From Candidatus Parcubacteria bacterium (lineage in GTDB: Bacteria > Patescibacteriota > Minisyncoccia > Phycocordibacterales > UBA918), in the NCBI GenBank assembly GCA_021731405.1, contig JAKFXN010000001.1, positions 29,857-93,856 on the forward strand: a DNA stretch of 64,000 nt. Reading direction: 5' to 3'. The notes beneath the pieces were generated by a model that did no database searches, was not told the origin of the DNA, and worked only from the letters and a program-made list of their open reading frames with translations. The translations under genes were made by a program, and so were the position numbers. Below are positions 33,510 to 55,346 of the stretch, piece by piece. The number at the start of each line of letters is the position of its first letter. The stretch's first letter is position 1.

Positions 33510-35081
33510 CTACCGATTATCCTCAGTCGCTTTTGACCGACGGTACAAAATAAAGAATAAGAGCACAAGCGCCAGAAGAAGTAGAGAAATGGTAGAGAAA
33601 AATGGTCTAACAGCCTCAACTAATTTGTCAGGAAACATCACCTCAGCAACGCTACCTACACTAGGTATAAACATGACTGGCTGACGATAGCGTCCGATAA
33701 CACTTCGTTCGTAATCAAAGATTTCAACTTGAATTCGTGACGGACCACTCGCTTGAAGCGGTGCGATGACTGCCTCATACGCATCTCCAGCTTTATTGAT
33801 ACGAAGTAAAAACGAATAGCTCCGATTTGGGTTAGTTGGGTCTACCAAAGTAACGATAATTGATTTCAAATTATCAGGCAGTGCTTCTTTTTTAATACTA
33901 ATGATAAAAGCTTCGTTTTCTAAAAGCTCAATGTTTTCACTTTTGAAGCTAAAAGTTTTGTCTCCCTGATTAAGGGTAACCGCATCAGTAGAAAAATTGA
34001 AATACGGAAGCTCAATTATGGGTTCTTCGGGTACAACCTCTGGTTCTAAGGGTTCACCGGTCCCGGTCGAAGTTGCTCTTTTGGTAGCTTTTGCTACCGC
34101 ACCAGAAGAAACCGAACCGTCGTTCGAGATAACAAAGGCGGTGTAGTAGAGTGTTGAGTAATTAGAAAACGCGCCACTATCAAGAAACGTTAGTGCGCTA
34201 CCTTCGTACACCACGGCTCCATCATACGGATCAAGTGGGTAACCCAAATGACTACGAACAATCCTAACCACAGCGTTTGGTACCGAAGGTGGAGTTATGT
34301 AGCTTAGACGCACGTCATTTTGCAGTGGAGTAGCAGTAAAGTTCCGTACGTTGGCAGGTGTCAGGTTCTCTCGAGCGATGGTTGTAAACTGACCTGAACG
34401 AAGCTCGAGGACTCGTCCGTTGGCAGCATAGCCAATGAGTTCATAGAGATACGTAGTTCCTGGCTCAAGATCAGTGATGAGCGTCTGTTGTTCTTTGCGG
34501 TAGATATCATTAATGATATATCCCTCGTCAAAACTATTGTTTCTTCCCCAGCGTAGCGCGTACCGTGCTGGCATACTAGTCTCCCACTCAAATAGTGCAC
34601 TGTTGGTGTCGGGTGTTATATCTAGATTGAGTAGTCGAAAAACAAGCGTCCCTGAACTTCCATTTTCGGTAGAGGTTGCCTGGGGAGGAGCGACTGGCTG
34701 CGCTGGCGTAGTTGTAGACAGAGCGTTTGAGGTAGTTGAAATATTATAGAAACTATCAAACGCGTATACTTCATATTCGTATAGTGTTTCAGCCAAGAGT
34801 CCGGTATCAGCAAAAGAAGTGAGTGTAGTTGTAGCAATCGCGAATCCGTCCCGCAAAAGCACGTACCCACCAAGCAAGAGGTTATCGGTAGCCACACTCC
34901 AAACAACATCAATCTGAGTTGCTGCTGTTGGGGTAACTGATAGAAGGGTTGGTGTGGTTGGTGGCTCAAGATCTTCACCGCCTTGTACCGTGATAGTAAA
35001 CTGCGAAGTGGTTGCACCAAAAACTAAGCTTGGAAACAAGACAAAGAAGGCAAAAATAAAGCGTGGGAAGATGTACATCAT
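33510..35081 (-). CDS. Cell-surface protein with fibronectin-III-like repeats, an N-terminal signal peptide and a C-terminal TM anchor
   Basis: 523 aa with Fn3-like segments (PTTPTLLSVTPTAATQIDVVWS; PANVRNFTATPLQNDVRLSYI) and a C-terminal LLLLALVLLFFILYRRSK. Confidence 0.6.
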   Translation of the reverse strand: MMYIFPRFIFAFFVLFPSLVFGATTSQFTITVQGGEDLEPPTTPTLLSVTPTAATQIDVVWSVATDNLLLGGYVLLRDGFAIATTTLTSFADTGLLAETLYEYEVYAFDSFYNISTTSNALSTTTPAQPVAPPQATSTENGSSGTLVFRLLNLDITPDTNSALFEWETSMPARYALRWGRNNSFDEGYIINDIYRKEQQTLITDLEPGTTYLYELIGYAANGRVLELRSGQFTTIARENLTPANVRNFTATPLQNDVRLSYITPPSVPNAVVRIVRSHLGYPLDPYDGAVVYEGSALTFLDSGAFSNYSTLYYTAFVISNDGSVSSGAVAKATKRATSTGTGEPLEPEVVPEEPIIELPYFNFSTDAVTLNQGDKTFSFKSENIELLENEAFIISIKKEALPDNLKSIIVTLVDPTNPNRSYSFLLRINKAGDAYEAVIAPLQASGPSRIQVEIFDYERSVIGRYRQPVMFIPSVGSVAEVMFPDKLVEAVRPFFSTISLLLLALVLLFFILYRRSKATEDNR

Positions 35082-35845
35082 AGTGGAGTAGCCGTCAGTG
35101 TAGTGGTGGCAATATACGTACCAATTATCACTCCAGCTGAACCGCCAATGCCAACTCTAAAATTAAGGGTGGTGGTGGCACCAGCAGGCTGATTGGCTGA
35201 CCCTTGCGCAATAATAATATCGCTTGTAGATAAGCCCTGCCAACACGCAAGGGCGGTATCGAAGCTTCCTACTCCGCACGTACCACCATTGTCTCTAAAC
35301 TCAGCCACAATATCACTTCCTTCAGGTGAAAATCCAAACTGCGCATCAGTGGCTCCTGTCACAAAAGAAAAGTCTGCCGCTGGGTCAACAGTAGAAACAT
35401 AGTCCGCAATAGTATACGGGTCATTTTGCATGGCAGGAGCAGACTCTGCTGCAATAGTAAGTTCGTATCCACTCGGGCTATCGGTAAGCACCACCACGCT
35501 GGTGGAGCCGTTTGAAGTACCCCCTGTCAGTCCACCCAGTGCTGGCAAGAGCGTAACGTCAGCCGCCTCGGTGATACTCAAAAAGACTTCCTGCATTTGC
35601 TGATACCCAGCTCGTAGGCGGTAGTTAGAACTATCCGAATCACCACTTGCCACTTCTCCAGCAGTACTCTCAAGTGAATAATTAGTAGAAGTTGAAAGAC
35701 CACCGCCAAAGTTTATACTGTCGCTCTGTAGTTGATAGGTTGGACTAGTGCGTACTTGCGCTACTGATACAGATAACAGCGATACACAAAGTACCGTTAA
35801 TACGACTGTCTGTAGAAACAATGTGTAGAAAGAACGAAATGACAT
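35078..35845 (-). CDS. Small secreted protein, paralog of 36939..37658; WxL-domain-like but lacking the Trp residues
   Basis: Signal peptide, LTGGTSNGSTSVVV.TDSPSGY, and a C-terminus ...TLNFRVGIGGSAGVIIGTYIATTTLTATPL that resembles WxL C-termini (Y.G.LTW.L.DAP). Confidence 0.5.
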   Translation of the reverse strand: MSFRSFYTLFLQTVVLTVLCVSLLSVSVAQVRTSPTYQLQSDSINFGGGLSTSTNYSLESTAGEVASGDSDSSNYRLRAGYQQMQEVFLSITEAADVTLLPALGGLTGGTSNGSTSVVVLTDSPSGYELTIAAESAPAMQNDPYTIADYVSTVDPAADFSFVTGATDAQFGFSPEGSDIVAEFRDNGGTCGVGSFDTALACWQGLSTSDIIIAQGSANQPAGATTTLNFRVGIGGSAGVIIGTYIATTTLTATPL

Positions 35846-35849
35846 ATGG

Positions 35850-36917
35850 TTAGCCGCGACGCTTGAACTCAAATGTTCTAAAGAAAAATCGTAAAGTAAA
35901 GAGAATAATAAAGATGCCAAGGAAAATACCCCCTACCACTTTCCAAGGTAAGACCCAGAAGGTAAAGCTAAACTCATCAACAATATCATCGTAGCCACGG
36001 TTAATAAGTGCTGTAGCGGTATAACGACCAAACAACAGCTCTCTGTCCCAACTAATATCGCGAGTGCGAAGTGACTTAGGTAACACAAACCAAGGCTCAA
36101 GCTCTACAAAGCCTACCTCCTCACCAAACAAATTGGTAATACGAACTTCACCATATGGGTTCACATGTACCGATCCGGTATTTTCATACAAAATCCGCAT
36201 ATCGATAGGACCTTTCTCAAACCACCATGAGGGACGCGCGAGTGAAAAATCTTTTGTTTCACCCCCCTTCACTACTTCTCCTGGTACTGTAATAAAAAAT
36301 AAGGTTCCGATGCGAGCTACAATCGGCGAACGAGCCGTGCCAGCGCCGCCGTTGTCACCTTCATCTTTGACGGTAGACACCAAAACACCGCCGTAATATC
36401 CGCCTGGCTCAGCGTCAGCTGGAATACTAATAGTTACAGGCACACGAGCCCGTTCCCCTAGATTAAGGGTAAACGAATTTTCTGGAAAACTAATGTAGTC
36501 TTTGATTGTGTGTGGGCCGCGCTCCTCACCCAAAAACACCATTGCTCGAGAAGCATCATTACTTCCTGCAATATCCTCAACCACCAGTTCAAACCTGCGG
36601 CCGTCACTGATGCGGTTTGAAACTGATATTTCGTAGACAACTGTCTGCCCAGGCTTAACTTCAATTTCTGCTCGACCAGGGCCAACCACAAAGTCCCCCT
36701 GATTCACCGTCCCAGAAAGCTTCTCGAGTTTATACCAAGGTGCAGCAGGTGCGGCCTCCTCAGTAGTTGAAGTGGCTTCTGTCTCTACAGACAAAACACT
36801 CTCGTCTTCTAAGACTTGAGTATTTTCTTGTGCAGATACTGCAAGCACTCCTATTGTGAACACAAAGAGTGTGAAGGCAGTTTTATAAGCTAATGTAATA
36901 ACATTTTGTGTAGTCAT
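35850..36917 (-). CDS. Surface protein with DUF916/DUF3324-like (CscC-like) architecture: signal peptide, beta-sandwich region, C-terminal TM plus a basic tail
   Basis: 355 aa. Central segment ISFPENSFTLNLGERARVPVTISIPADAEPGGYYGGVLVS and C-terminal KVVGGIFLGIFIILFTLRFFFRTFEFKRRG. Confidence 0.5.
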   Translation of the reverse strand: MTTQNVITLAYKTAFTLFVFTIGVLAVSAQENTQVLEDESVLSVETEATSTTEEAAPAAPWYKLEKLSGTVNQGDFVVGPGRAEIEVKPGQTVVYEISVSNRISDGRRFELVVEDIAGSNDASRAMVFLGEERGPHTIKDYISFPENSFTLNLGERARVPVTISIPADAEPGGYYGGVLVSTVKDEGDNGGAGTARSPIVARIGTLFFITVPGEVVKGGETKDFSLARPSWWFEKGPIDMRILYENTGSVHVNPYGEVRITNLFGEEVGFVELEPWFVLPKSLRTRDISWDRELLFGRYTATALINRGYDDIVDEFSFTFWVLPWKVVGGIFLGIFIILFTLRFFFRTFEFKRRG

Positions 36918-36938
36918 AGGTATGAGACTACACTACCG

Positions 36939-37658
36939 CTATTGTGGAGCTACCGTCAAGGTTGCGGTTGCAGTGTAGGTGTCGACAACGAGACCTGGAT
37001 TTGGATTATTGGGTACATGAACACGGAAATGAAGGGTTGAAGTAGCACCAGTTACCGCATCTGTATCTCGGTCAATGATTTGGAAGGTGGTCGTCGCTGG
37101 TGTCATCCAACATCGATCAACAGTGTATCCCCCACCAGCATTGCAAATTGTACCGTTATTAAGGAAAGATTGATCGAGGTCAGAGCTATCAGCTGCACTC
37201 ATAGTATAAGCAAAAACAGCGGCTGTACTGGCAGTTGAGAAGAGGAATGATGGCTCAAATGGATTAGTAGTACTACCGGTAGTACTTGCTGGGTAATCGC
37301 GGATAGCGCTACTACCAGTAATCTCTCCTTCCATTGTTTGGAGGGTGCCGTTATCGAAAAAGGCAATGTCCATAGTGTAGCCTGTTGGACTGTTGGTTTG
37401 TACCACTACTGTAGTAGAGCCGTTTGCTGTACCTCCTGTAATACCGTTTAGAGAACCAGAGAGCGTTGTATTATTAGCATCAACAATGAACGATGTTTCA
37501 CCAACAATTTCTTGTGAGATAGTGAATGGACCACTAGTATCCTGTGCCCTACCGACACGAGGCTCCGCAAAGAAATATAAAGCAAAGAGTACTGCCACAA
37601 TAAGGACGGCGGCAATAAATGCTTGCGTGAGTGAAGTTAAATAAAATTTTGTGTTCAT
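36939..37658 (-). CDS. Small secreted protein, paralog of 35078..35845 (WxL-like without Trp)
   Basis: Shared motifs ITGGTANGSTTVVVQTNSPTGY and TSTLHFRVHV...TYTATATLTVAPQ. Confidence 0.5.
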   Translation of the reverse strand: MNTKFYLTSLTQAFIAAVLIVAVLFALYFFAEPRVGRAQDTSGPFTISQEIVGETSFIVDANNTTLSGSLNGITGGTANGSTTVVVQTNSPTGYTMDIAFFDNGTLQTMEGEITGSSAIRDYPASTTGSTTNPFEPSFLFSTASTAAVFAYTMSAADSSDLDQSFLNNGTICNAGGGYTVDRCWMTPATTTFQIIDRDTDAVTGATSTLHFRVHVPNNPNPGLVVDTYTATATLTVAPQ

Positions 37659-37792
37659 ACGTATAATGTTGTTGTTAATACTTTATCCTTTAATTTTAGC
37701 AAAAAATGCGACTTTTTCTGAGCTTTTTTTGCTTGTTTTTGTGTATAACTTAAGCAGAAATAACGAGCACAAAGTGCGAGTATATTTTGCTT

Positions 37793-37858
37793 ATGCAGGC
37801 GCTTAGCCATGATTCGACCCCACAGGGAGAATCTGGCTGTAGCGAGCTGCAAAGTAGA
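37793..37858 (+). repeat. Copy 1 of a duplicated ~65-nt element (core ATGCAGGCGCTTAGCCATGATTCGACCCCACAGGGAGA + ..GCTGCAAAG.AGAA)
   Basis: The 38-nt core is identical to 37985-38022. Lies in the intergenic region downstream of the 2040-aa gene. Confidence 0.7.
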
Positions 37859-37984
37859 AGCTGTAAATCATCAGCCGACTATATTTTGCTTGACCTAATT
37901 TTTAAGGAGTGAAGCGACTAAAAAAATGTGAGGTGAATTGCGGAGCAAGAGAAAATGCCCTGGGGTAGAAATACTCTTGTGGTG

Positions 37985-38051
37985 ATGCAGGCGCTTAGCC
38001 ATGATTCGACCCCACAGGGAGAAAATGATGTATGTGGGCTGCAAAGCAGAA
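37985..38051 (+). repeat. Copy 2 of the duplicated ~65-nt element
   Basis: The core is 38/38 identical to copy 1 and the tail is partly conserved. Confidence 0.7.
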
Positions 38052-38079
38052 ACAAGGAGGCTATAGCCTCCTTGTTTTT
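38051..38079 (+). terminator. Plus-strand intrinsic terminator (AACAAGGAGGCTATAGCCTCCTTGTTTTT)
   Basis: 11-bp perfect stem with the T-run only on the plus side, immediately after repeat copy 2. This implies a short plus-strand transcript. Confidence 0.6.
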
Positions 38080-38108
38080 GGCTAATTTTTCACTTACAAT
38101 TCTAACCT

Positions 38109-41100
38109 TTAAATACCTCCACCGCCGCCAGAGCTACCGCCGCCTGCTTGGTGATACACCCTGACCTCAAGAGCATCTAGACGAATGGTATTGGAAGCTG
38201 GTTGCGCCGATACTCGAAGTCGGAAATTAGCTCCGCTAAACTGAGCTGCTGTCCAAGACCGTCCCCAAAGATCACTCGCACCACCCACAAGGTAGACTAC
38301 GTCAGAACCTGCCATAGTTGGAGTAGCTTTAGCAGTAGTGTATGAGTTACCACTATCCCAAGAGAGTGAGACATCAATTGTTCCAGCTGCCGTACTACCA
38401 GAAGCATCGAGCTTCACCGCAATACCTTGAATAGTATTTCCGTCAGGAACATTGAAGTTAAAGCCATTGTATGACTGACGAAGATTGGTTGAAGCGGCAG
38501 TGGCATAGGTACCATCAGACAAGAGGGCGTTTTCTCCATTAGTCCACTCATTATGACTGTCTCCAGTCGCGTTTGGACGAGCGAAGTCTGGGTCAGCAGC
38601 AATATTTTCTCCGTCTTCTTCCTCGCCAGCGCCCACTCCTCCACCAGTCTCACCTCCCTCAACAACACCTGCTCCTGCTGGTGCAGGATCTCCAATACGG
38701 GCAACATTACCTCCTCCACCTCCGCTACTATTCCTAAAATGTTGGGAAGTATTCACCGTCGTTAAAATGACCGGTGCGTAAACCGAGGTGGCCCCAAGAG
38801 CAGTTAACCCGAGTGCTGGAAGACTGAAGACTACCGAGTCTCCAAGCTGGGTCCCAGTAGTGTCAGCAGTGACCAGGTAATTGACTGACGTAGAGGCAAC
38901 AAAGTTTTGACTGAAGGTCACTGCACCATGTTGTCCATTGAAAGTCAGAATTCCGTCTCCATCAAGAAGGAGGTCTCCTCCATCCAAAACTCCATCGCTA
39001 TCATTGTCACGATAGAGATTGAAGTCGGAAAGATTGCTACTATCAAGACCTTGTACCCCACTAAGAGAGACCACCAGGTCAGTCACCGTTATCACTTCAC
39101 TCTGTCCGACCAGATTGAAGGCAAAGAGCGGAACATCATCTTTGTTTTGAGCACTAAACTCATTTTCTACTTGTCCCGCTGCATGATTTGCAATCGTAAC
39201 ACTGCCAGTAATACGGATTGTTTGTGTATCAAGTGCTGCTGGTTCACCGGCTGTATTACCGTCTGTATGAAGCTCAAAAGCGCTCGTAGTGGTAGAGACA
39301 GCGGCAAAAGATCCGGCCGTTATTCCGTTTACAATAAGCGTATCTGAGGCAGCGAAGTTTTCTGTCACGGTAAGCACCAGAGTTGCTCCGGCTTCTTCAT
39401 AAGATGCTGTAGTTGAAACCTTCCCCGCTGCCGTTCCGCCAAAGGTAAGATTGGTCGTACCGGTATTGAAACGGAAGTTTGAAGTAGTGGTCGCAATACT
39501 GATGCGAATATCATTTGCTGTAGTTATAGACGGACTAACACTCTCGGCAATAACCACTGCTCCGAGTGTGGTTGTGGCCTGCCCAACATAGAAGTGATAC
39601 GGGGCGGCAGAATAAAATTCTATTGCTTCTGCTGGCGTAAACGGCCAATTCACATTGTTGCCACTATCAAGACATCCTATATCACAAACCACAGTAGATA
39701 CATTAACGTTGTTTGAATCTTTTACATCTATGTTTGCTAAAGTTGTAGTAGCTGGATTTACATACCAATATTGACCATTTGTGCTTGAACGTAACAAATG
39801 CCTTTCACTTGAACTCGTTCCGGTAAAATTCCATTCTCCTTCAATAGTGGTAAGGGTACCTGCTCCGAAAGTGGTGGTGGCAGTTACTGTCGCATTCTTT
39901 GTCAGGTCAAAAAATGTCGTTGTTCCATTAAGGGCATGTACAGCACCAAGCAGGATAACTTCGCCCCCATTTGCGTCAAAAGCACCGTTATTAGTAAAGT
40001 CTCCGTTTGTGACCGAAAGCGCGCTTGAGGGTGCTGTAACACTCTTTCCCGCAGCCACTGTGAAACTTGTCGTTGAAGCAGTCGCTGTCAAAGTAACTCC
40101 GCCACCTCGACGAAGCACTGCGTCATCATCACCAACATACAAAGTTCCTCTACTGGTATCTATAGTCATCGCCCCAGTAAAGGTGGTGTCGCTTATAGTC
40201 TGGACCAAAGCCCAGTCAGCAGCAGAGTCACAGGCTGTAGATGTCTCACAACGAAACAAAATTTGTCCAGAACCAAAGCCACCAGCGTACAAAAAACCAT
40301 GACCTGAATCAAATTGGAGTGCGGTTATACCACCTAAAGTATCTCCCACATCCGTATCAAGTCCAGTAATGGTAGTAAAATCACCTGAAGCATTACAATC
40401 ACTGGAGAGTGGGCAGCGATAGATAATATCTGAAGATCCACCCCCGCCAGCGTACAAAACTTGATTGGTTGTATCAATTTCTATTGGAGTAAGATAGTCT
40501 ATTCCAGCATTATTGATCACAAATGAGAAGTCGCCATTTGCGTCACAGCTTGAGGATAGGACGCAGCGATAGATAGCACCAGCCCCACCATACCCGACAG
40601 TCACATACATCACATCGTTTACCTCATCAATTACAACATCACCCGAGTATCCAGAAATGGCAAAGCTTGAGAAATCACCTTGGGCATTACAGTCACTGGA
40701 AAGTGGGCAGCGGTAAAAGACGTTGTAATCACCACCGTATAAAACATTATTTTGTGTATCTATACCGAGGGCATAAAAACCATTTCCGTCTGCGTCATAC
40801 ACTTCACTAAAGTCACCCGAAGCATTACAGTCTGAAGACAAGACACAGCGATAAAGAGCACCTGAAGCAGGACTTCCAACACCAACATACAGAGCACCGT
40901 TTACTTCATCTACTACTATTGAGTAGACAATCTGATGTGTCGTATCATACGCCACTGCAAAGTCTCCACTGGCGTCACAGTTTGTGGTGAGGATACAGCG
41001 ATATAAGATTCCGTTGTCTCCCGAACCCGCATACAAGACGTCATTCGTTTCATCAATTGCAAAGACTCGGAACCATACCTGTCCACTTGCGTAAGCAGTA

Positions 41101-44100
41101 GTAAATGTCTCAGTCCCTACTCCAGAAACTTCAAGGTTTGCAAAAGCTGAAGTCCCAGTCATTGTCCCAGAAGCTACTCCTCCCAACGATGTTAAGAATA
41201 CCGTCCCGTTATTGGCATCAAAAGTTCCGCTATTTACATAATTCCCATTTACGATTAATTCCGCTGGTGCCTCGACAGTACCCTGCGTAATGGTTAAATT
41301 ATTCACTTCGGTGCTGGTTCCGAGGAGTAAGCCCGACCCGCCAACAGTAAGATGATTAAGGGCATTTGCCCCAACTAAGTCTCCCGAAAATTCTGGAGAA
41401 AGTTGGAAAGACATAATCTCACAACCAATAGCTGAGCCAGTGACAGATGAACAAGCGGTAAGACTTCCTTCTTTACCGAGGTAGAGATAATTACCACCAA
41501 CACTTAATGCCCCCATTGCAACCACTCCCGTTGCACCGGTAGGAGAACCGTTTGAGTCACGACCCGCGACATAGATAGGGTTTGTAGAAGAAGCGAGGTT
41601 ATAGACTTGCAGTTCACAACCAACGGCTGAATCTGGAATTTGGGAACAGGTCGTAGCATTATCTTCTTTACCAAGAAAGAGATGCTCATTTTTTATCACG
41701 ACTGAATATACTAACCCGGTAAACGTACCAACAGAACCACCGACGTCACGACCGGCACGATAAATAGGGTTCGTACTTGAAGAAATATCGTACACCTGAA
41801 GTTCGCAGTTATATGCTGCGCCTGCAACTTGAGAACAGGCAGAAGAACCTCCAGCGTTGGCAATATATAAATAATTGCCTGACTTGGCCATGCTTAAAAA
41901 TACATTGCCACTACTTCCTCCAGCATCTCCCTCAGCGTCACGACCGGCACGATAAATAGGGTTTGTACTTGAAGAAATATCGTACACCTGAAGCTCGCAA
42001 CCCGCCGCTGAACCTGGTGTCGGAGAACAAGCTGCAGTGTCACCGCCCGTACTGGCATACAGATAATCCCCATTAACAACTAAACTATAGACACTATTTA
42101 CACCCGAACCTGTTGATGACCCAGTACTATCACGTCCCGCCACATAGACCATATTTGTACTTGAAGAGATATCAAACACCATCAGTTCACAGCCGTCTCC
42201 CGCACCTGACGTTTGCCCGCACGAAGCACTGTTGAGTTCCTTCCCTGCATACAAATAATTACCTGACGCCGCTAAACTTAAGAAAAATAGCTGTGAGTTA
42301 CCATTGAGTGCACCATCATGATCTATTGAGGTAAGGAAGACAGGGTTTGTCGGATCAGTAATATCAAAAGACATCAGTTCACAACCCTGAGCGTTGGTCC
42401 CACTTTGGGTACAAGCGGTATTTACCCCTCCCTTACCAACAAACAAAATGTTGTCTTTAATGGTAAATGAAGAAATAAACTCCGCAAAGTTACCGTCCGC
42501 GGATCCGTCCACATCTCGCCCCGCGACGTAAATCATGTTGGTTGGATCAGAAACATCATACACTTGAATCTCACAGCCGATCGCCGAACCAGGAGTTTGT
42601 GAACAAGGAGTAGCCTCCCCAGCAGTACCAATAAATAAATAGTTGCCGTAGGTGATTGATTTATTGATAGTAACTGCGTCGGTACCTGTTGCTGATCCGT
42701 CCATATCCACCGCTCCAGAAAAACCAACAAGTGCTGTATCTGTATATATCTGTCCACCATTATTATCGAAGGTGCCTCCGTTGTGAAAGCTTCCAACAGT
42801 TAAATTTGTTGGCGCAACAAGACTTGAGCCAGCGCTGATGTAAAGATTTGAAGTTGAAGCAGAAGTAGTAGCAATGCTGTACGATGAAGAATTATCAAAA
42901 TCTAATGTAGAAAAGCTACTAGTTGCTGTCAAAATCCCATCAACCACTCCCGACCCAGTCATGTATACCACACCACCATTAGCATTAAATATTCCTCTAT
43001 TGATGAAATCCCCAGAAGCTTGTATAGATGGTGCTGAAACAAATTCTCCCCTGCTAATCAAAAAATCTCCATTAGAAACAAATTCTTCTCCGTTTAAGAA
43101 ATGAAGAATATCCGCATCAGACACAGTGTCGTAAGTAAAGTTAAGCGGATTTATTTGTACCGTAGATGAAGCACCGTACGCAATCACATGCTCATAGTAA
43201 AGCGGTATATTTCGTACCCCTATCCCCGTACTATACCCACTTACGAACGTAGTGGCGTCATTAGCATCACCATCAAGCCATATTACAAAAGGGGTACCGC
43301 TCGTAGCTGAAGAAACGTCTGCATTTGAAAATTCCCAAGCGCCACTACTATTTGTGGTAGTACTAAAAATACTTGGCGTTGAAGTACCGACCCACATCTT
43401 GATAGTTTTTCCCGAACCAGCGGTCGTTACGCCTGCGTCAGTGTACAATGTACCGGCAAAGTACGGAGACGGGGTTTCGCGGATAGCTAAGTGAATAGCC
43501 GCTGCGTCGTCAGTTGTGGCGTAGGTATAACCAACCGATCGTGCGCCTTGGCCAGCGGTAGTTTCCCGACCGAGCATACTAGCCTGCGTAGCAGCGAGCA
43601 CAATACTCTGCAGCGCAGTTGTGTTTGCGCCAGCAGTTAGGGCTGTGTTTCTACCAGTATAGGCTCCTACATACCGCATACTATTAGTACCCAAAGAACC
43701 ATCGTCTACTGACTGTTCACTGTACGCTAGGTTGTTTTGGAGTAATACATATCCGGTTGTTTCTGTATTCCCTGCTGCTTGTACAGAAGCTGCATTTGCG
43801 TACATTACCGTTGCATTATTGGTACGTGTTACCTCAATAGTCTGACTCCCCGTTGGGACACTTGACCCAAGAAAGAATGCGGTCACTCGAGCAGGTTCAG
43901 TGGTAGTGTCGATAGCCTCTGACACTTGCGTCATTGTTACTCCACCATAAGTTACTGAAGTAATGTAGTCTGCATTTGCTATTGTAGTCACAAACACGAG
44001 CACACCTTCAGGTGAGCCGGTATCTCCATGTGTCCAACTAAATGAAGTGGAGGAAGCGTTACCGCTTGTACCAGTATGACTTTCTGAAGAAGTACTGTGG

Positions 44101-44231
44101 GACACCGCCGCTAAAGCACTTGGTGCAAAGAGAACAAAATACGCAAAAGTAAAAAATAGAACCAGAAGAAAACCGAGGCTTTTTTTAGTTGCTTGGTTAG
44201 CGGTTTTGGTTGTGGTGATTGTTGTGTACAT
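38109..44231 (-). CDS. Giant (2040 aa) secreted repeat protein: 8 LVIVD-like beta-propeller repeats (C.L.VYD.S.STNP.Y.AGRD), 8 Cys-pair repeats (YRC.LSSDC.A.GDF), Ig-like regions and a Gly-rich C-terminus
   Basis: Signal peptide LGFLLVLFFTFAYFVLFAPSALA. The periodic repeats were read directly from the translation. Confidence 0.7.
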   Translation of the reverse strand: MYTTITTTKTANQATKKSLGFLLVLFFTFAYFVLFAPSALAAVSHSTSSESHTGTSGNASSTSFSWTHGDTGSPEGVLVFVTTIANADYITSVTYGGVTMTQVSEAIDTTTEPARVTAFFLGSSVPTGSQTIEVTRTNNATVMYANAASVQAAGNTETTGYVLLQNNLAYSEQSVDDGSLGTNSMRYVGAYTGRNTALTAGANTTALQSIVLAATQASMLGRETTAGQGARSVGYTYATTDDAAAIHLAIRETPSPYFAGTLYTDAGVTTAGSGKTIKMWVGTSTPSIFSTTTNSSGAWEFSNADVSSATSGTPFVIWLDGDANDATTFVSGYSTGIGVRNIPLYYEHVIAYGASSTVQINPLNFTYDTVSDADILHFLNGEEFVSNGDFLISRGEFVSAPSIQASGDFINRGIFNANGGVVYMTGSGVVDGILTATSSFSTLDFDNSSSYSIATTSASTSNLYISAGSSLVAPTNLTVGSFHNGGTFDNNGGQIYTDTALVGFSGAVDMDGSATGTDAVTINKSITYGNYLFIGTAGEATPCSQTPGSAIGCEIQVYDVSDPTNMIYVAGRDVDGSADGNFAEFISSFTIKDNILFVGKGGVNTACTQSGTNAQGCELMSFDITDPTNPVFLTSIDHDGALNGNSQLFFLSLAASGNYLYAGKELNSASCGQTSGAGDGCELMVFDISSSTNMVYVAGRDSTGSSTGSGVNSVYSLVVNGDYLYASTGGDTAACSPTPGSAAGCELQVYDISSSTNPIYRAGRDAEGDAGGSSGNVFLSMAKSGNYLYIANAGGSSACSQVAGAAYNCELQVYDISSSTNPIYRAGRDVGGSVGTFTGLVYSVVIKNEHLFLGKEDNATTCSQIPDSAVGCELQVYNLASSTNPIYVAGRDSNGSPTGATGVVAMGALSVGGNYLYLGKEGSLTACSSVTGSAIGCEIMSFQLSPEFSGDLVGANALNHLTVGGSGLLLGTSTEVNNLTITQGTVEAPAELIVNGNYVNSGTFDANNGTVFLTSLGGVASGTMTGTSAFANLEVSGVGTETFTTAYASGQVWFRVFAIDETNDVLYAGSGDNGILYRCILTTNCDASGDFAVAYDTTHQIVYSIVVDEVNGALYVGVGSPASGALYRCVLSSDCNASGDFSEVYDADGNGFYALGIDTQNNVLYGGDYNVFYRCPLSSDCNAQGDFSSFAISGYSGDVVIDEVNDVMYVTVGYGGAGAIYRCVLSSSCDANGDFSFVINNAGIDYLTPIEIDTTNQVLYAGGGGSSDIIYRCPLSSDCNASGDFTTITGLDTDVGDTLGGITALQFDSGHGFLYAGGFGSGQILFRCETSTACDSAADWALVQTISDTTFTGAMTIDTSRGTLYVGDDDAVLRRGGGVTLTATASTTSFTVAAGKSVTAPSSALSVTNGDFTNNGAFDANGGEVILLGAVHALNGTTTFFDLTKNATVTATTTFGAGTLTTIEGEWNFTGTSSSERHLLRSSTNGQYWYVNPATTTLANIDVKDSNNVNVSTVVCDIGCLDSGNNVNWPFTPAEAIEFYSAAPYHFYVGQATTTLGAVVIAESVSPSITTANDIRISIATTTSNFRFNTGTTNLTFGGTAAGKVSTTASYEEAGATLVLTVTENFAASDTLIVNGITAGSFAAVSTTTSAFELHTDGNTAGEPAALDTQTIRITGSVTIANHAAGQVENEFSAQNKDDVPLFAFNLVGQSEVITVTDLVVSLSGVQGLDSSNLSDFNLYRDNDSDGVLDGGDLLLDGDGILTFNGQHGAVTFSQNFVASTSVNYLVTADTTGTQLGDSVVFSLPALGLTALGATSVYAPVILTTVNTSQHFRNSSGGGGGNVARIGDPAPAGAGVVEGGETGGGVGAGEEEDGENIAADPDFARPNATGDSHNEWTNGENALLSDGTYATAASTNLRQSYNGFNFNVPDGNTIQGIAVKLDASGSTAAGTIDVSLSWDSGNSYTTAKATPTMAGSDVVYLVGGASDLWGRSWTAAQFSGANFRLRVSAQPASNTIRLDALEVRVYHQAGGGSSGGGGGI

Positions 44232-44252
44232 ATATGAGTGTTTTCTTTTGGA

Positions 44253-50200: not shown

Positions 50201-53200
50201 AAGCAATTCCCGTAGTAGCATTAAATCCTAAATTAGTGCCATCAAACGTAAAGTTAGATGCATCTGTGAGCGCTGTCCCACCACTGTTGGTGAAGATAAC
50301 TCTATTAGCAGTGAGTGAGTTTTGGGTATCAGAAAGACCAGTAAAAGTATTGTCTCCAAAACCAAGGGTTGAGGTAGCAACCCAGCGAGTTGAGGTGCCG
50401 GTGGTTTGGAGAATCATGCCGAGTGTTCCAGAGGCGTTTGCTCCGTCACGGAAGGCGCCAGTAATATATGTGTCTCCTACTATAGTAAGCCTGCTACTTG
50501 GAGTAGTCGTACCAATACCAACGTTTCCATTACTATCAACATTGATGCGACGATTACCTTGGCCGTCAGCGATGATGATGTTGTTTGAAAGTGATGAAGA
50601 AAGGCCAGAAACATTTGCCCCAAGAATGGTGTTGTAATCACCAGTGACAATACCCAGGCCAGTTTCATTACCGATAATAGTGTTATTCTCTCCATCTACA
50701 ATGTTGCTTCCAGTGGTGCGTCCTATACCAATGTTTCCTCCTCCTGTAGCCGCATTAAGAGCATAGTATCCGATACCCACATTACCCCAACTGGTTGAGT
50801 TAGAACCAACTGCCAATCCTCCGATAGCAACATTGTAGTTACCAGTAGTATTTTGATCTAAAGCATTGTATCCAACAGCGGTGTTATGCTCGCCAAGAGT
50901 ATTGTTCACCAGCGCAATAGAACCAACAGCGGTATTGAACTGTCCCGCAGTATTGTCTGCCAGCGCGGCATTTCCGACTGCAGTGTTATTAGAAGATGAA
51001 GTACTAACCATAAGAGCATTAGTACCAAGTGCTGTATTAGAATTACCAGTTATGTTTTGCTGTAAGGCATACCGACCCATGGCGATATTGCTGTAGCCAG
51101 TGGTTGTAAACTGCATCGCCCCTTGCCCGACAACAGTGTTATCAGAACCGGTAGTCAAAGCACCAAGTGCAAACCTACCAACACCCAAGTTATCAATTCC
51201 GAGGAACTGATTGGTACTCGAGCCAAGGGTAAAGTTACCAGCCTGATACCCCATGAACTGGTTAGTTCCATATGTATTATCTAGAATATAACCATGAATG
51301 AAGCGTTCGCCATCAATATTAAGTACTCCAGCCGCACCGCCTGCAGTAGTACTGAGAAGATTAACGTTATTTGTGACACTAATTGTGCCCGCCACACTGA
51401 GCCTAGAAGCTGGTGTTGAGGTACCAATACCAAAATTAGTGCCATCAAAGATTAAACTAGCAGAGTCTGTAAGTGACGTACCACCACTATTAGTGAAGAT
51501 AACTCTATTAGCAGTGAGTGAGTTTTGAGTATCAGAGAGACCGGTAAAAGTATTGTCTCCAAAACCAAGCGTTGAAGTCGCTACCCAGCGTGTTGAGGTG
51601 CCGGTGGTTTGGAGAATCATGCCGAGTGTTCCTGAGGCATTTGCTCCGTCACGGAAGGCACCGGTGAGACGAAGAGTGCTCAAAAACGCATCTCCAGACA
51701 CTGAGAGATTTGTAGTAGAGGCGTTTCCTAGAGTTGAAGCCCCACTCACAGAAAGTGCTCCAGAGGTCAAGGTACCGCCGTTTAAGTTAAGTGGCGTTGC
51801 TCCGCCAGTAGTATATAGACCATAGTCTATGAGTGCTTGACGTAAATCTGCTGTTGCTCCCGCCTTTACTATTGGAGTAGCCCCAAAGAAACCGAGTTGT
51901 GAAGCGCTGAGATTATCTTTAATTGAAATAACTGTACCTAGTCCTGACAAAAGGTTTATTGTTCCGTTCTGACCACTGCCGTCTCCTAATCCTGCAGATA
52001 ACTCAAGATTTCCTCCTTCTCCATCAAAACCAGCTTCAGCTGACCCACCAAAAAATCCGAAGTTTCCTCCTCTGGTGCGACCGGTACCTCCAAAAGCTTG
52101 CATCTCTCCACCAATTCCACCTCCAAAGAGCGCATTACCACCAGATAAATAGACTGAGTTTGCGGAACCAGACGTTACCGCAGCAGCTTGAATTTCTAAG
52201 TTTGTGCCAGGAAGAGACTCTATATATCTTGTGTAGACAGTGCCTGTAGATGTGACGTTTCCACCAACATACGCATTCCCTCCCACTGTAAGTCGTGAGC
52301 CAGGAGTAGTACTTCCAATACCGAGATTAGTCCCATCAAAAACAAAGCTGGCAGAATCAGTAAGTGACGTACCGCCACTATTGGTGAAGATAACTCTATT
52401 AGCGGTAAATGAAGACTGGGTATCACTGAGTCCCAGATACGTGCCGTTACCGAGACCAAGAGTTGAAGTCGCTACCCAACTGGTACCGATACCTGTACTA
52501 CTCAGAATCTGCCCAACTGTACCAGACGCATTTAGGGTGTCACGGAAAGAGCCGGTGAGGCGAAGGTCGCCAACAACTGAAAGCGTACTGCCCGGAGTTG
52601 TTGTGCCGATACCAACTCTGCCGGCGCTAGTGACTGTAATTCGGTTAGTACCAGCAGTAGCAAAACCGAGACCTGTTCCTTCCATGTACATACCAGTACT
52701 CGTATCTCCTGTCCAAGAGTACTTTGGTGCTGCGGCAGTGCCAGCTCCGACCATCTGGAATTGTCCTACCCCTCCATTGAGAGCCCAACGCATTCTTTCT
52801 GCACCACCAAGAGAAAGACTAAACTGGGAGGCAGCACTTCTGTACAGACCTACGTCCGAGCCCAATGCGATACCTCCCGTTGCAGAAGTACTGTCGGCGA
52901 GTGTGAGGGTTGAGTATGGAGTAGTTGTCCCAATACCAATGTTTCCGCTACTGAGCACTGTAAAGACTTCTGTCACCCCACTAAAAAGTGCGAGTACTTT
53001 TCCGACACCATTTTGAATAATTGAAAGAATTGGTGAAGACGACGTAGCCTGCATGGTGTCCGCTTCATCAGAACGAAGGAACGAGGTGGTCGCTATACCA
53101 GCTAGTGTCTGAGCATTTTCTGCTTCAAACGCAGCGGGTACGGCACCAAGGATTTTTCGTGGACTCATTTCTCCGTCCCATACTGGTGTAGTAGTACTAA

Positions 53201-53558: not shown

Positions 53559-53564
53559 ACGATT

Positions 53565-54350
53565 TTATTCGCTGGCTTTATTACGTTCTTCCTCAACACC
53601 CGAAACAGGTACCGTCACAAATGGATATTCCACTACCTCACCCTCATTTTTTTTGTATTCAATCACTCCATCAGCATCTTCACTAAACACCACACTGACT
53701 TCATCTGAAAAAAGATTCTGCACGTCTTCTACTGTTTTAATATCTCCTTCACTTGGAAGAATAAAAATTCCCTCCACTCCTTCTCTATCCATTCTTCGCA
53801 CCTCACTTTCATCCTCAAAAAGTGGGTACTCCATGACCGTTGAGTACAGAGTCGTTGGTTGCGGCTCTGCAGTAGCAAAATTCTCAGAGGTCACTACCGG
53901 CAACTCTTCAACTATCGAAACCTCACCAGCCCCGCTGAGACGAGCCATGTTTATGTGTTGAGGTAAAAGTGCTGAGGAGGTGTACAGCCCTGTCCCGATC
54001 ATGAGCCCCAGACCAAGTGCGAGCGTGGCTGCTAACTGGGCACGAACTCGGACAAGCTTCACTTTTCCCCGAGCTGTTTTTTTGATCACCCCCACTTCCT
54101 GCTTCACGGTCTGCTCGCGCTTGCGCTCGAGACTGAGCTGCTGTTTTCGAACCGTCTGTTCGAGCTCTGCTGTCTCAGCAAAATTTCGAAGTGAGGTGGT
54201 GTCGATAAACCACTGTCGTCCGATTTGTGAAGCGACGATTTTTTGTTCACGGGCGAGACGAGCTACATAGTCACGCGAATACGAAACAAGCTTGGACGCA
54301 TCCTTGATTGGAAGAAAGGTAGCTCCGTTTATTTCTACTTGTGTCGACAT
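53565..54350 (-). CDS. Membrane-anchored protein with an N-terminal excisionase/MerR-type HTH (HTH_17-like), a central TM and an acidic C-terminal domain
   Basis: FLPIKDASKLVSYSRDYVARLAREQKIVASQIGRQWFIDTTSL matches the excisionase-family HTH pattern. TM LAATLALGLGLMIGTGLY. Confidence 0.55.
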   Translation of the reverse strand: MSTQVEINGATFLPIKDASKLVSYSRDYVARLAREQKIVASQIGRQWFIDTTSLRNFAETAELEQTVRKQQLSLERKREQTVKQEVGVIKKTARGKVKLVRVRAQLAATLALGLGLMIGTGLYTSSALLPQHINMARLSGAGEVSIVEELPVVTSENFATAEPQPTTLYSTVMEYPLFEDESEVRRMDREGVEGIFILPSEGDIKTVEDVQNLFSDEVSVVFSEDADGVIEYKKNEGEVVEYPFVTVPVSGVEEERNKASE

Positions 54351-54413
54351 ACTGATTTAGCTTTAATTATAAAGCTAGTTCAGTACATTTTTATATTTAA
54401 AATGTTGATAACT

Positions 54414-55346
54414 TTAGCGTGAAAAAAGTGCCAGAAGAGCAGTTAGTGACTCAGTTGAAAAATGGATACTCCAGTCGTAAGAAGTGACACTCGCCTCAAC
54501 GGTACTCTCAGCAAAAAATACCACTATGAGAAGGACTGCGAGCGCAGTGCTGATAGTCACAAGGGTTACTCGCACATAGCCACTTTCTATTTCGTCATTC
54601 TCTACTTCTTCTAACACCTCCAAAACCTCAGTTGTGCTGATTTTGGTAGGACGTGGGATGCTTTTGAGCGGTACAGGACGTAAAATATCTCTTTTTTGTA
54701 AAGGAGCATGATGCAAAACGGGCTTTTTTGGAGCTGTTGGCATCATTTCTGGTTCAGGTAGGTCTATCTCGGAAATTTCTTCAAGATCTTGATAATCTTC
54801 TTCAATCGAAGCCACCATTACTTTCCCCTTGAGTGACACGGTAGGCAGATCTTCTGCAATAAGGTTAGTGATTTTGGAGCTTGTTTTTATAGCTAGTTCG
54901 GATGATTCAGCCAAATCAATCTTTACTCTTCGAGCTGGTACTTCAGCTCGAAGCTGCGGCAAAAGCGCGGTCTCGTCCACTTCGTACTTAAGCGGTTTCC
55001 AATCAATTCGCTTGGCAAAATGCTTGTTTTGCTCTGTAGACATTCGAACAGTGTTTTTGGACACGACAGGTTCTACGTCTAGCCGAGATAATGTTACTTC
55101 ATAACCTTTTTCTTCAGCCTTGCTCTCTTTGACTTCCACCTTAGCTGCCGCTTTTGTATTAGCATAACGACCTTCTTTGTGCGCAGTGAGTGAGATTGGA
55201 TTTACATACCAACTTCTACCTACGAGCTGGGCATCAACCTTTTTGGCACGGCAGAGCTGGCCGATATAATCAGTGGTATAGCGAAACTGCTTTGCTAGAC
55301 TAGAAGCTGGCAGATACTCAACTCCCCCAATCGTTATCCCTTTCAT
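54414..55346 (-). CDS. Paralogous membrane-anchored excisionase-type HTH protein (TM near the C-terminus)
   Basis: YLPASSLAKQFRYTTDYIGQLCRAKKVDAQLVGRSWYVNPISL, and TM VTLVTISTALAVLLIVVFFA. Confidence 0.55.
   Translation of the reverse strand: MKGITIGGVEYLPASSLAKQFRYTTDYIGQLCRAKKVDAQLVGRSWYVNPISLTAHKEGRYANTKAAAKVEVKESKAEEKGYEVTLSRLDVEPVVSKNTVRMSTEQNKHFAKRIDWKPLKYEVDETALLPQLRAEVPARRVKIDLAESSELAIKTSSKITNLIAEDLPTVSLKGKVMVASIEEDYQDLEEISEIDLPEPEMMPTAPKKPVLHHAPLQKRDILRPVPLKSIPRPTKISTTEVLEVLEEVENDEIESGYVRVTLVTISTALAVLLIVVFFAESTVEASVTSYDWSIHFSTESLTALLALFSR

What the first reader, a model, noticed from the sequence alone, without database searches (positions are those of the whole stretch)
33510..55346. 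22-kb co-oriented surface-protein locus: HTH membrane pair, two giant repeat proteins, WxL/DUF916-like trio and an Fn3 protein
Nine consecutive minus-strand genes have only short or overlapping intergenic gaps: 6 bp, 21 bp, a 4-bp overlap and 4 bp. Nearly all encode signal-peptide or TM proteins. They run from two membrane-anchored HTH proteins, through a 3101-aa tail-fibre-like protein and a 2040-aa beta-propeller repeat protein, to a small/large/small secreted trio and an Fn3 protein. This looks like a dedicated cell-envelope adhesion or attachment module. A giant tail-fibre-like protein placed next to a WxL/DUF916-type complex is not a described combination. It occupies about one third of the window.
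Basis: partly seen in the sequence, partly recalled or inferred. Interest (0 to 1): 0.7.

Follow-up and report, generated by a model that had tools for sequence, protein, structure and literature searches.

The report
Pam/WxL-like pilus cassette with giant adhesins
This stretch of a tiny-genome (Paceibacteria/CPR) bacterium encodes a conserved four-gene kit for building a thin surface fibre without an outer-membrane pore, flanked by two huge, variable adhesin-like proteins and two membrane-tethered DNA-binding proteins. It is a compact relative of the recently described CPR "Pam" pilus, and one of its proteins is also related to the WxL surface-protein clusters of Gram-positive bacteria.

Summary
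The gene block is real, but it holds eight ORFs, not nine. A 450-bp spacer with a strong hairpin splits it into two probable units: HTH-HTH-3101aa-2040aa, then 239-355-255-523 aa. The last four genes are the conserved core. All four were detected in 69 of 80 related species loci, always collinear.

- **239-aa protein:** a paralogue of the 255-aa protein.
- **355-aa protein:** signal peptide, DUF916 domain, second beta domain and C-terminal TM helix. It is homologous to the Firmicute WxL-interacting protein (profile E 4e-12 to PDB EfmWxLIP1).
- **523-aa protein:** two Fn3 domains plus a C-terminal TM helix, like PamR.
- **Giants:** they vary in number, sequence and position but mostly stay next to the cassette.

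Best reading: an usher-less donor-strand fibre or anchoring module that displays giant adhesins. The WxL call for the small proteins failed. The "undescribed combination" claim is overtaken by a 2026 Pam-pilus preprint. I class it as a new variant of a known kind.

The parts
54414..55346 (-). 310-aa protein with an N-terminal HTH (paralogous to the next gene's HTH) and a C-terminal TM segment (residues 256-289). First gene after the GatB terminator.
   Evidence: (33% identity over the first 55 aa, E 2e-10)
53565..54350 (-). 261-aa protein with an N-terminal HTH_17/excisionase-type domain, a weak mid-protein hydrophobic segment and an acidic C-terminal part. It lies 6 bp upstream of the 3101-aa gene.
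   Evidence: PF12728, E 1e-5; 121 homologues, many carrying PF12728
44253..53558 (-). 3101-aa secreted tail-fibre-like giant. It has a signal-like N-terminus, at least 5 repeated modules (GIGTxTP, RWVATSTLG, NTAxG repeats), a conserved C-terminal ~650 aa and an acidic Glu/Pro tail. It has no LPxTG motif and no C-terminal TM segment.
   Evidence: C-terminus 62-88% identical in relatives; PHROG tail spike, E 1e-40
38109..44231 (-). 2040-aa secreted giant with repeats (orthologues carry faint or weak LVIVD Pfam marks), YRCxLSSDC repeats and a conserved C-terminal ~670 aa. No anchor motif. Residues 1416-1532 match the part fused to a PamT-like module in locus L091.
38047..38080 (.). Palindromic hairpin (15-bp stem, 4-nt loop) 28 bp after the 2040-aa stop codon. 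Probable terminator separating the two units.
37793..38023 (-). Two exact 39-nt direct repeats (37793-37831 and 37985-38023), 192 nt apart, in the leader of the cassette. A close relative has one copy.
36939..37658 (-). 239-aa secreted single-domain pilin-like subunit, paralogue of the 255-aa protein. It has a conserved N-terminal FTIxQTITxEISF strand and two Cys.
   Evidence: (A2 profile, E 1e-54)
35850..36917 (-). 355-aa chaperone-like protein: signal peptide, acidic linker, DUF916/WxLIP-PGBD-like domain, a second highly conserved beta domain, a C-terminal TM helix and a conserved FEFKRK tail.
35078..35845 (-). 255-aa PamT homologue. It has a signal peptide and a 55-aa extension with three xxYxL motifs that is disordered in the monomer model yet the most conserved part. 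A donor-strand pilin fold with a conserved Cys pair follows.
33510..35081 (-). 523-aa protein: signal peptide, short N-terminal strand, two Fn3 domains (about residues 28-126 and 150-265), a further beta region and a C-terminal TM helix. PamR-like architecture. It overlaps the 255-aa gene by 4 bp.
55378..55397 (-). Terminator-like hairpin with a T-run, just after gatB. It marks the start of the unit that begins with the 310-aa gene.

Best explanation
The conserved core is the last four genes (239, 355, 255 and 523 aa). I read them as an usher-less, Sec-dependent donor-strand assembly module of a single-membrane CPR bacterium. It would be a compact Paceibacteria version of the CPR Pam pilus, and its chaperone-like component is homologous to the WxL-interacting protein of Firmicutes.

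Proposed steps (inferred, except where marked):
1. The 239-aa and 255-aa subunits are exported by Sec.
2. Their pilin-type fold is shown, by model, for the 255-aa protein. It is inferred for the 239-aa paralogue.
3. The membrane-anchored 355-aa protein binds and stabilises them by inserting a strand. This is what PamC/PamD are proposed to do and what WxLIP is predicted to do for WxL.
4. Subunits are then joined by strand exchange into a thin fibre or stalk. The 255-aa PamT homologue sits at the distal or adaptor position. The 239-aa protein is the repeating unit. The 523-aa Fn3/TM protein is the membrane-proximal anchor.
5. The neighbouring giant secreted proteins have no anchor of their own. 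They are the likely adhesive cargo mounted on this module.
6. The two membrane-tethered HTH proteins at the head of the giant-gene unit are probably one-component regulators. This is the weakest step.
For: PamT link:
- The 255-aa protein hits NCBIfam NF058579 (CPR_pilus_PamT) at E 1.6e-13.
- All 120 members of its family sampled do the same.

Pilin fold:
- The alignment-based AlphaFold2 model has pLDDT above 90 for most of residues 85-255.
- Its Foldseek hits are almost all chaperone-usher pilins such as PapE, the PapG pilin domain, FimG, CsuA/B and CfaB, with probability up to 1.0.
- Residues 30-87 are disordered in the monomer model. They are nevertheless more conserved than the folded domain (0.84 against 0.71 mean top-residue frequency), as expected for a segment that folds on a partner.
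- The family has an invariant Cys pair, C190 and C201.
- The 239-aa protein is a paralogue.

Chaperone-like protein:
- The 355-aa family profile matches PDB EfmWxLIP1 at E 4.2e-12, and PF06030 in 32 of 57 members.
- It has a signal peptide and a C-terminal TM helix, the architecture reported for PamC/PamD and WxLIP.

Anchor:
- The 523-aa protein has two Fn3 domains and a C-terminal TM helix, like PamR.

Synteny:
- The cassette is collinear in 69 of 69 loci.
- Giants are adjacent in most loci. They stay with the cassette when the order changes. In seven loci the giant follows the Fn3 gene, with a 3-bp gap in L076 and a 4-bp overlap in L090.
- In L091 a 2040-like segment is fused to a complete PamT-like module.
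- The Pam preprint reports a tail-fibre-like protein co-localised with pam operons.
Against: - The PamT match is far below the model's equivalog cut-off (50.6 against 240 bits). It covers only residues 13-136, which include the signal peptide.
- No NCBIfam model for any other Pam component was hit by the 239-, 355- or 523-aa proteins, or by 57 relatives of the 355-aa protein.
- No two-domain PamA/PamB-type pilin exists in the 64-kb window.
- The only model of the 355-aa protein was made without an alignment and is unusable (pLDDT 43). Its PapD-like shape is therefore inferred from WxLIP homology and the literature.
- Only its first domain shows significant similarity to WxLIP.
- Polymerisation, strand exchange and giant-protein attachment were not tested. 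No multimer prediction was available.
- The 355-aa protein is 58-78% identical across the relatives aligned. By my own judgement that is unusually high for a pilus chaperone.
- Three loci (L031, L034, L038) have no giant between the HTH genes and the cassette.
- The HTH pair always sits next to gatB as well, so its link to the module cannot be separated from general collinearity.
Confidence: 0.6

Rival explanations
1. A WxL-cluster-like, non-polymerising surface complex. The membrane-anchored WxLIP homologue (355 aa) simply holds the two small incomplete beta-sandwich proteins at the envelope by strand complementation. This forms a static platform, with no fibre, that tethers or organises the giant proteins.
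For: - There is true sequence homology to WxLIP.
- The composition of one WxLIP plus two small paralogous secreted proteins matches the commonest WxL cluster as defined in PMC10599100.
- The gene order and sizes mirror an Enterococcus plasmid locus: WxL 238 aa, WxLIP 335 aa, then a 1492-aa BspA surface protein.
- AlphaFold in that paper predicts that a WxLIP strand completes the WxL sandwich.
- Nothing here proves polymerisation.
Against: - The small proteins have no W-x-L motif, no Pfam WxL hit in 121 members and no hhalign similarity to a WxL protein.
- Their best structural matches are polymerising pilins.
- The 255-aa family matches PamT.
- The giants lack a C-terminal domain like the small proteins, unlike large WxL proteins.
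- DUF3324 was not detected.
Confidence: 0.25
2. These are unrelated envelope genes that are neighbours only because gene order in this chromosome region is conserved in the clade. There is no shared function between the HTH pair, the giants and the cassette.
For: The flanking housekeeping genes are equally syntenic in relatives: SecA-Obg-GatB upstream and GAPDH-RpiB-Rpe-transketolase downstream. A terminator-like hairpin and 450 bp separate the giants from the cassette.
Against: - In six loci of the 80, and in the distant L090, the downstream GAPDH block is lost. A giant nevertheless sits directly after the Fn3 gene, 3 bp away in L076 and overlapping by 4 bp in L090.
- Non-homologous giants occupy the same slot in L072.
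- L091 fuses a 2040-like segment to a PamT-like module.
- Within the cassette the gaps are 21, 4 and -4 bp.
Confidence: 0.1
3. A prophage or tail-fibre remnant. On this view the 3101-aa protein is a phage tail fibre and the block is mobile DNA.
For: PHROG tail-spike and virion-structural hits to residues of about 766-997.
Against: - There are no other phage genes.
- The flanks are housekeeping genes.
- GC content is uniform at 0.44-0.48 across the block.
- The locus sits at the same chromosomal place in 80 species.
- The PHROG hits fall in generic fibre repeats.
Confidence: 0.02

Closest known systems
Pam pilus of Candidatus Mycosynbacter amalyticus (Saccharimonadia), bioRxiv 10.64898/2026.03.03.709456
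   Same: - It is a CPR bacterium, and all components carry Sec signal peptides.
- There is a PamT homologue of similar size (255 aa against a 241-position model; PamT is 25.6 kDa).
- There is a chaperone-like two-beta-domain protein with a C-terminal TM helix.
- There is a tandem-FnIII protein with an extra N-terminal strand and a C-terminal TM helix.
- There is no usher and no trans-envelope machine.
- A tail-fibre-like protein is encoded alongside.
   Different: - There are no two-domain PamA/PamB/PamE pilins, only two single-domain subunits.
- There is one chaperone-like gene instead of two.
- The Fn3 protein is much larger (523 aa against PamR at 32.8 kDa).
- The PamT match is far below the NCBIfam cut-off.
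- The lineage is Paceibacteria, which that preprint's text does not mention.
- The neighbours are GatB and GAPDH rather than ATP synthase, CorB and MFS genes.
WxL gene clusters of Firmicutes (WxLIP = DUF916 + DUF3324 + TM helix, with small and large WxL proteins), PMC10599100
   Same: - The 355-aa protein is homologous to the WxLIP first domain and has the same overall layout and length range (337-365 aa).
- It is flanked by two small secreted paralogues of about 240 aa.
- A very large surface protein is encoded next door.
- The partner is predicted to be completed by strand insertion.
   Different: - The small proteins lack the dual W-x-L motif and any detectable WxL-domain similarity.
- DUF3324 was not detected.
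- The giants have no C-terminal domain like the small proteins.
- An Fn3/TM protein is present, and there is no LPXTG protein.
Archaic (sigma) chaperone-usher pili, such as Csu of Acinetobacter baumannii and CupE of Pseudomonas aeruginosa
   Different: The locus has no outer membrane, no usher and no PapD-family (Pfam) chaperone. Sequence identity is only 11-16%.

Membership tests
CPR Pam pilus system | Single-domain truncated-Ig tip pilin PamT | tested here: met
   NF058579 hit at E 1.6e-13 for the 255-aa protein and for 120 of 120 family members. The model has a donor-strand pilin fold. Caveat: the score of 50.6 bits is far below the equivalog cut-off of 240, so this is a distant homologue, not an equivalog.
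CPR Pam pilus system | Two-domain major pilins (PamA/PamB: N-terminal beta-sandwich, linker donor strand, C-terminal truncated Ig domain) | tested here: not met
   Only two single-domain subunits (239 and 255 aa) are present. Profile scans of all 215 window ORFs of 70 aa or more found no further pilin-like protein.
CPR Pam pilus system | FimC/PapD-like chaperone carrying a C-terminal TM helix (PamC/PamD) | tested here: inconclusive
   The architecture fits: signal peptide, two beta regions, C-terminal TM segment at 318-349. The fold could not be verified because the single-sequence model had pLDDT 43. No NCBIfam Pam chaperone model was hit, and no M. amalyticus sequences were available for direct comparison.
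CPR Pam pilus system | RbmA-like tandem-FnIII protein with a C-terminal TM helix (PamR) | tested here: met
   Two Fn3 domains (profile positions 28-126, E 2e-21, and 150-265) and a TM segment at 487-518. This was tested as architecture only, not as orthology.
CPR Pam pilus system | Filament assembled by donor-strand exchange | not testable with these tools
   It needs multimer prediction or cryo-EM. The only indirect support is the conserved but monomer-disordered extension.
WxL gene cluster (Firmicutes) | WxLIP: DUF916 (PGBD) + DUF3324 (HBD) + TM helix | tested here: inconclusive
   DUF916 homology is solid (E 4.2e-12 to EfmWxLIP1, PF06030 in 32 of 57 members, hhalign probability 91%) and the TM helix is present. 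DUF3324 was not detected in any scan.
WxL gene cluster (Firmicutes) | At least two proteins with a WxL domain (dual Trp-x-Leu motif) | tested here: not met
   There is no W-x-L in the 239- or 255-aa proteins, which have one Trp each. There is no WxL-domain Pfam hit among 121 members at E up to 1. hhalign against an Enterococcus WxL protein gave E 0.83.
WxL gene cluster (Firmicutes) | Large surface protein ending in the same domain as the small proteins | tested here: not met
   The profile of the small-protein family does not match either giant (E 0.015 or worse). Such a fusion exists only in the distant locus L091.
Classical chaperone-usher pili | Outer-membrane usher and periplasmic PapD-family chaperone | tested here: not met
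   No usher or PapD-family Pfam hit in any of the eight proteins.
Prophage / phage tail module | Neighbouring phage structural, packaging or integration genes | tested here: not met
   The flanks are GAPDH, GatB, Obg and SecA. PHROG hits are limited to fibre repeats and Fn3. GC content is uniform.

The most novel reading that the evidence does not exclude
The Paceibacteria cassette combines, in one operon, a PamT homologue and a true WxLIP (DUF916) homologue. It could therefore be the link showing that Firmicute WxL clusters and CPR Pam pili are one ancient family of usher-less, membrane-anchored chaperone/donor-strand systems of single-membrane bacteria. In Paceibacteria this would be a near-universal apparatus that mounts hypervariable giant adhesins, with the PamT-like module as the attachment point. 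The papers I could search make neither connection.
Probability: 0.35. Interest if true: 0.8.

Novelty: new variant of a known kind. Interest (0 to 1): 0.6.

Why it matters
Paceibacteria (Parcubacteria) are a very large, almost entirely uncultured group. How they hold on to hosts or surfaces is unknown.

- **A concrete target.** A four-gene cassette was found in every one of 80 related species loci sampled, and its 355-aa protein is 58-78% identical across the relatives aligned. That gives cryo-ET, metaproteomics and heterologous expression something specific to look for.
- **Host specificity.** The adjacent giant proteins differ even between close relatives, which makes them natural candidates for host or substrate specificity.
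- **The WxL connection.** If the homology to WxLIP reflects a shared mechanism, WxL clusters of Enterococcus, Listeria and lactobacilli, which are linked to adhesion and virulence, would be donor-strand systems too. The Pam pilus would then have relatives well outside the CPR.
- **Annotation.** The thousands of proteins related to these four are named "hypothetical protein" wherever the sources I saw give a name. They could be annotated.

Tried and rejected
- **Structure of the 355-aa protein.** A single-sequence AlphaFold2 run gave pLDDT 43 and was discarded. This used one of the two prediction jobs, so its PapD-likeness stayed untested.
- **AlphaFold database search.** Foldseek against afdb50 was unavailable.
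- **Locus search with the diverse alignment.** Alignment A3 was too divergent for the locus search, so A1 was used instead.
- **Other Pam models.** NCBIfam scans of the 239-, 355- and 523-aa proteins and of 57 relatives of the 355-aa protein gave no other Pam model.
- **Direct PDB sequence searches.** Both giants gave nothing. The 255-aa protein gave only chance hits such as MlaD.
- **WxL test of the small proteins.** Pfam, hhalign and a motif search were all negative. A PDB sequence search with an Enterococcus WxL protein found no solved WxL domain to compare folds with.
- **RNA families.** Rfam found nothing in 33000-56000.
- **The 39-nt repeat.** It is absent from all other loci except one close relative. 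It is therefore a lineage-specific duplication, not a conserved regulatory element.
- **Long metagenomic proteins joining adjacent cassette genes.** P0041, P0256 and P0303 look like fusions, but P0256 and P0303 retain the internal TM and signal segments. They look like read-through or gene-call artefacts of adjacent genes, and I do not use them as evidence.
- **A ninth gene.** Rejected. The only ORFs in the spacer are translations of the duplicated repeat.
- **Prophage reading.** Rejected on context.
- **An ORF-neighbour script.** My first version mis-ranked nested ORFs. I replaced it with hit-based classification and direct ORF lists.

Full report
**1. What is in the sequence**

Between 33510 and 55346 the minus strand carries eight ORFs of 80 aa or more: 310, 261, 3101, 2040, 239, 355, 255 and 523 aa. 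The 255-aa gene starts at the ATG at 35845, as 120 homologues of the same length confirm. It does not start at the upstream TTG that the ORF list reports.

The gaps are 63, 6, 21, 450, 21, 4 and -4 bp.

That spacer begins with a 15-bp-stem palindromic hairpin (38047-38080), 28 bp after the 2040-aa stop. A second terminator-like hairpin follows gatB at 55397-55378. The likely transcription units are therefore [310-261-3101-2040] and [239-355-255-523].

Co-orientation is not distinctive. The flanking housekeeping genes are on the same strand. GC content is uniform. The flanks are GAPDH, RpiB, Rpe and transketolase on one side and GatB, Obg and SecA on the other. This is chromosomal DNA of a small-genome bacterium. 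Its closest relatives are labelled Candidatus Kaiserbacteria, Nomurabacteria, Paceibacteria and Parcubacteria.

**2. The four-gene cassette is the conserved core**

The 355-aa and 255-aa proteins each have well over a thousand homologues, typically 60-70% identical and of nearly fixed length. An exhaustive profile search found 6604 clusters (at 50% identity) related to the 355-aa protein.

I fetched 80 loci, each from a different GTDB species genome, using the 355-aa family.
- All four genes were detected in 69 loci. In all 69 they are collinear on one strand within 4.5 kb.
- The other 11 loci lack a detected copy of at least one gene. Several are cut by contig ends.

**3. What the cassette proteins are**

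*The 255-aa protein.*
- It matches NCBIfam NF058579, "CPR-type pilus protein PamT". The E-value is 1.6e-13 and the score 50.6 bits, well under the equivalog cut-off of 240. The match covers residues 13-136.
- All 120 sampled family members match that model too.
- An AlphaFold2 model built on a 121-sequence alignment is confident for most of residues 85-255 (pLDDT above 90) and disordered for 32-83.
- Foldseek against the PDB returns almost only chaperone-usher pilins, plus TasA and CanA fibres.
- The disordered extension (residues 30-87) carries three xxYxL motifs. It is the most conserved part of the protein (0.84 against 0.71 mean top-residue frequency). That pattern is expected for a segment that folds only on a partner.
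- A Cys pair (C190, C201) is invariant.

*The 239-aa protein.* It is a paralogue of the pilin-like domain (36% identity, E 3e-20). It lacks the long extension but has a conserved N-terminal FTIxQTITxEISF strand.

*The 355-aa protein.* It has a signal-like N-terminus and a C-terminal TM helix. Its first domain is homologous to DUF916, the first domain of the Firmicute WxL-interacting protein.
- PF06030 is hit by 27 of 32 close and 32 of 57 distant family members.
- The diverse family profile matches the solved EfmWxLIP1 (PDB 9i25, 9i1y) at E 4.2e-12.
- hhalign against an Enterococcus plasmid DUF916/DUF3324 protein gives 91% probability.

*The 523-aa protein.* It has two genuine Fn3 domains and a C-terminal TM helix.

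**4. Comparison with known systems**

*The Pam pilus.* A 2026 preprint (bioRxiv 10.64898/2026.03.03.709456) solved filaments of the Saccharimonadia bacterium Ca. Mycosynbacter amalyticus and defined this system.
- PamA, PamB and PamE are two-domain pilins joined by donor-strand exchange.
- PamT is a single-domain tip pilin.
- PamC and PamD are FimC/PapD-like chaperones that carry a C-terminal TM helix.
- PamR is a tandem-FnIII protein with an extra N-terminal strand and a C-terminal TM helix.
- There is no usher.
- The preprint notes a tail-fibre-like protein consistently co-localised with pam operons.

The present cassette has a PamT homologue, one TM-anchored chaperone-like protein and a PamR-like protein. 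It lacks two-domain pilins, and profile scans of all window ORFs find no further pilin-like gene. It is therefore a compact variant, not a straightforward member.

*WxL clusters.* PMC10599100 describes WxLIP as two Ig-like domains set at right angles, followed by a TM helix. AlphaFold in that paper predicts that a WxLIP strand fills a gap in the WxL beta-sandwich. The commonest cluster is one WxLIP plus two WxL proteins, and a large surface protein is usually one of them. An Enterococcus plasmid locus I fetched shows WxL (238 aa), WxLIP (335 aa) and a 1492-aa BspA protein in that order.

The parallel with this locus is close, but the small proteins here fail the WxL test.
- They have no W-x-L motif.
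- None of 121 family members hits a WxL Pfam model.
- hhalign found no similarity to an Enterococcus WxL protein.

*A possible link.* The Pam preprint's text does not mention WxL, DUF916 or Paceibacteria. I found no paper linking WxL clusters to donor-strand systems or to Patescibacteria.

**5. The giants and the HTH pair**

*The two giants.* The 3101-aa protein has fibre-type repeats that hit PHROG tail-spike and virion families (E 1e-40). It also has repeated GIGTxTP, RWVATSTLG and NTAxG modules. Orthologues of the 2040-aa protein carry faint or weak LVIVD marks. Neither giant has an LPxTG motif, a C-terminal TM segment or a domain like the small proteins.

Their C-terminal 650-670 residues are conserved in the relatives I compared (51-88% identity). 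The repeat regions vary, even in a relative whose chaperone-like protein is 96% identical (3229 and 1852 aa there).

*Position relative to the cassette.* Fifty loci have at least 3 kb of sequence upstream of the cassette.

| Immediately upstream of the cassette | Loci |
|---|---|
| 2040-type C-terminus | 25 |
| 3101-type C-terminus | 6 |
| HTH gene | 8 |
| Something else | 11 |

- In six of the eight HTH loci a giant with a 3101-like N-terminus instead follows the Fn3 gene, and the GAPDH block is gone. In L076 the gap is 3 bp.
- The "something else" class includes unrelated giants of 1803 and 995 aa in L072.
- A distant Parcubacteria locus (L090, chaperone-like protein 39% identical) has the order GatB, HTH, HTH, cassette, then a 3857-aa giant overlapping the Fn3 gene by 4 bp.

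The giants therefore travel with the cassette when gene order changes. That argues against mere collinearity.

*A fusion lead.* In the still more distant L091, the chaperone-like gene is followed by three tandem small pilin-like genes. A divergent 712-aa protein there joins a segment 39% identical to 2040-aa residues 1416-1532 to a complete PamT-like module: three xxYxL motifs plus the pilin domain (profile E 1.6e-18). This is a single example. It nevertheless points to the PamT-like subunit as the place where adhesin and fibre meet, as in FimH/PapG or large WxL proteins.

*The HTH pair.* Both proteins have an excisionase/HTH_17-type N-terminus. The pair lies between gatB and the giants or cassette in every locus where that region was reached. 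Because gatB is always there too, a functional link is only suggested. The 6-bp spacing to the 3101-aa gene and the terminator upstream of the pair add some support.

**6. Most likely mechanism, with shown and inferred steps**

Shown:
- the homologies and the pilin fold;
- the membrane topology, from hydrophobicity;
- the conservation of the disordered extension;
- the synteny.

Inferred:
1. Sec exports the subunits.
2. The membrane-anchored 355-aa protein stabilises them by strand insertion.
3. Strand exchange then links the 255-aa protein (distal or adaptor), the 239-aa protein (repeating) and the 523-aa protein (membrane anchor) into a thin fibre or stalk.
4. The giants are mounted on that fibre.
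5. The HTH proteins regulate the unit.

I put 0.6 on the donor-strand module reading. The main rival, at 0.25, is a static WxL-like anchoring complex with no polymer. It shares the strand-complementation idea and cannot be excluded without multimer models or imaging.

**7. Verdict**

The DUF916 call was a good one. The WxL label for the small proteins and the claim of an undescribed combination do not hold. The locus is a new, compact Paceibacteria variant of the newly described Pam system. Its chaperone-like protein is also homologous to the Firmicute WxL-interacting protein, which is a possible link between the two systems.

Noticed in passing
window 37793-37831 and 37985-38023 (minus strand), within spacer 37659-38108: Two exact 39-nt direct repeats (TTCTCCCTGTGGGGTCGAATCATGGCTAAGCGCCTGCAT) lie 192 nt apart, each preceded by CTTTGCAGC. 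A close relative (L004) has a single copy with 2 mismatches at the same place upstream of the 239-aa gene. The window genome therefore carries a roughly 190-bp tandem duplication of the cassette leader. There is no Rfam hit, and the 450-nt spacer folds with z = -4.7. The element is absent from the other loci fetched.
   Followed up: partly
L091 559-2697 (minus) and 5034-8678 (plus): A distant relative has the chaperone-like gene followed by three tandem small pilin-like genes (240, 244 and 256 aa) and no adjacent Fn3 gene. A divergent 712-aa protein there fuses a 2040-like beta-helix segment to a full PamT-like module.
   Followed up: partly
window 35850-35950 (C-terminus of the 355-aa protein): The TM helix and short cytoplasmic tail (WVLPWK...FFRTFEFKRK) of the chaperone-like protein are highly conserved across 61 species, more than a plain membrane anchor would need. 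This hints at an interaction inside or under the membrane.
   Followed up: no
proteins P0041, P0256, P0303 (short metagenomic contigs): Some database proteins of 549-596 aa join adjacent cassette genes (239-like plus chaperone-like, or chaperone-like plus PamT-like). P0256 and P0303 keep the internal TM and signal segments. These are probably read-through or assembly artefacts rather than true fusions.
   Followed up: partly
window 8528-11959 (minus): A further large envelope-type protein (1143 aa) with a DUF11 repeat domain lies 21 kb from the locus, among housekeeping genes.
   Followed up: no
window 58077-58409 (minus): A 110-aa four-TM-like protein of the Phage_holin_4_2 family sits between secA and obg. 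It is conserved at that position in several relatives, so it is a chromosomal membrane protein, not a prophage remnant.
   Followed up: no
loci L008-L087 (record titles): Many MAG records titled 'uncultured Candidatus Saccharibacteria bacterium' carry a cassette 50-70% identical to those of Kaiserbacteria, Nomurabacteria and Paceibacteria genomes, with the same synteny. Those titles look like generic or wrong taxonomic labels.
   Followed up: no
L006 10804-19732: In one relative the gene caller reports only small opposite-strand genes across about 9 kb downstream of the HTH gene, where other genomes have a giant gene. This may be a disrupted or miscalled giant gene.
   Followed up: no
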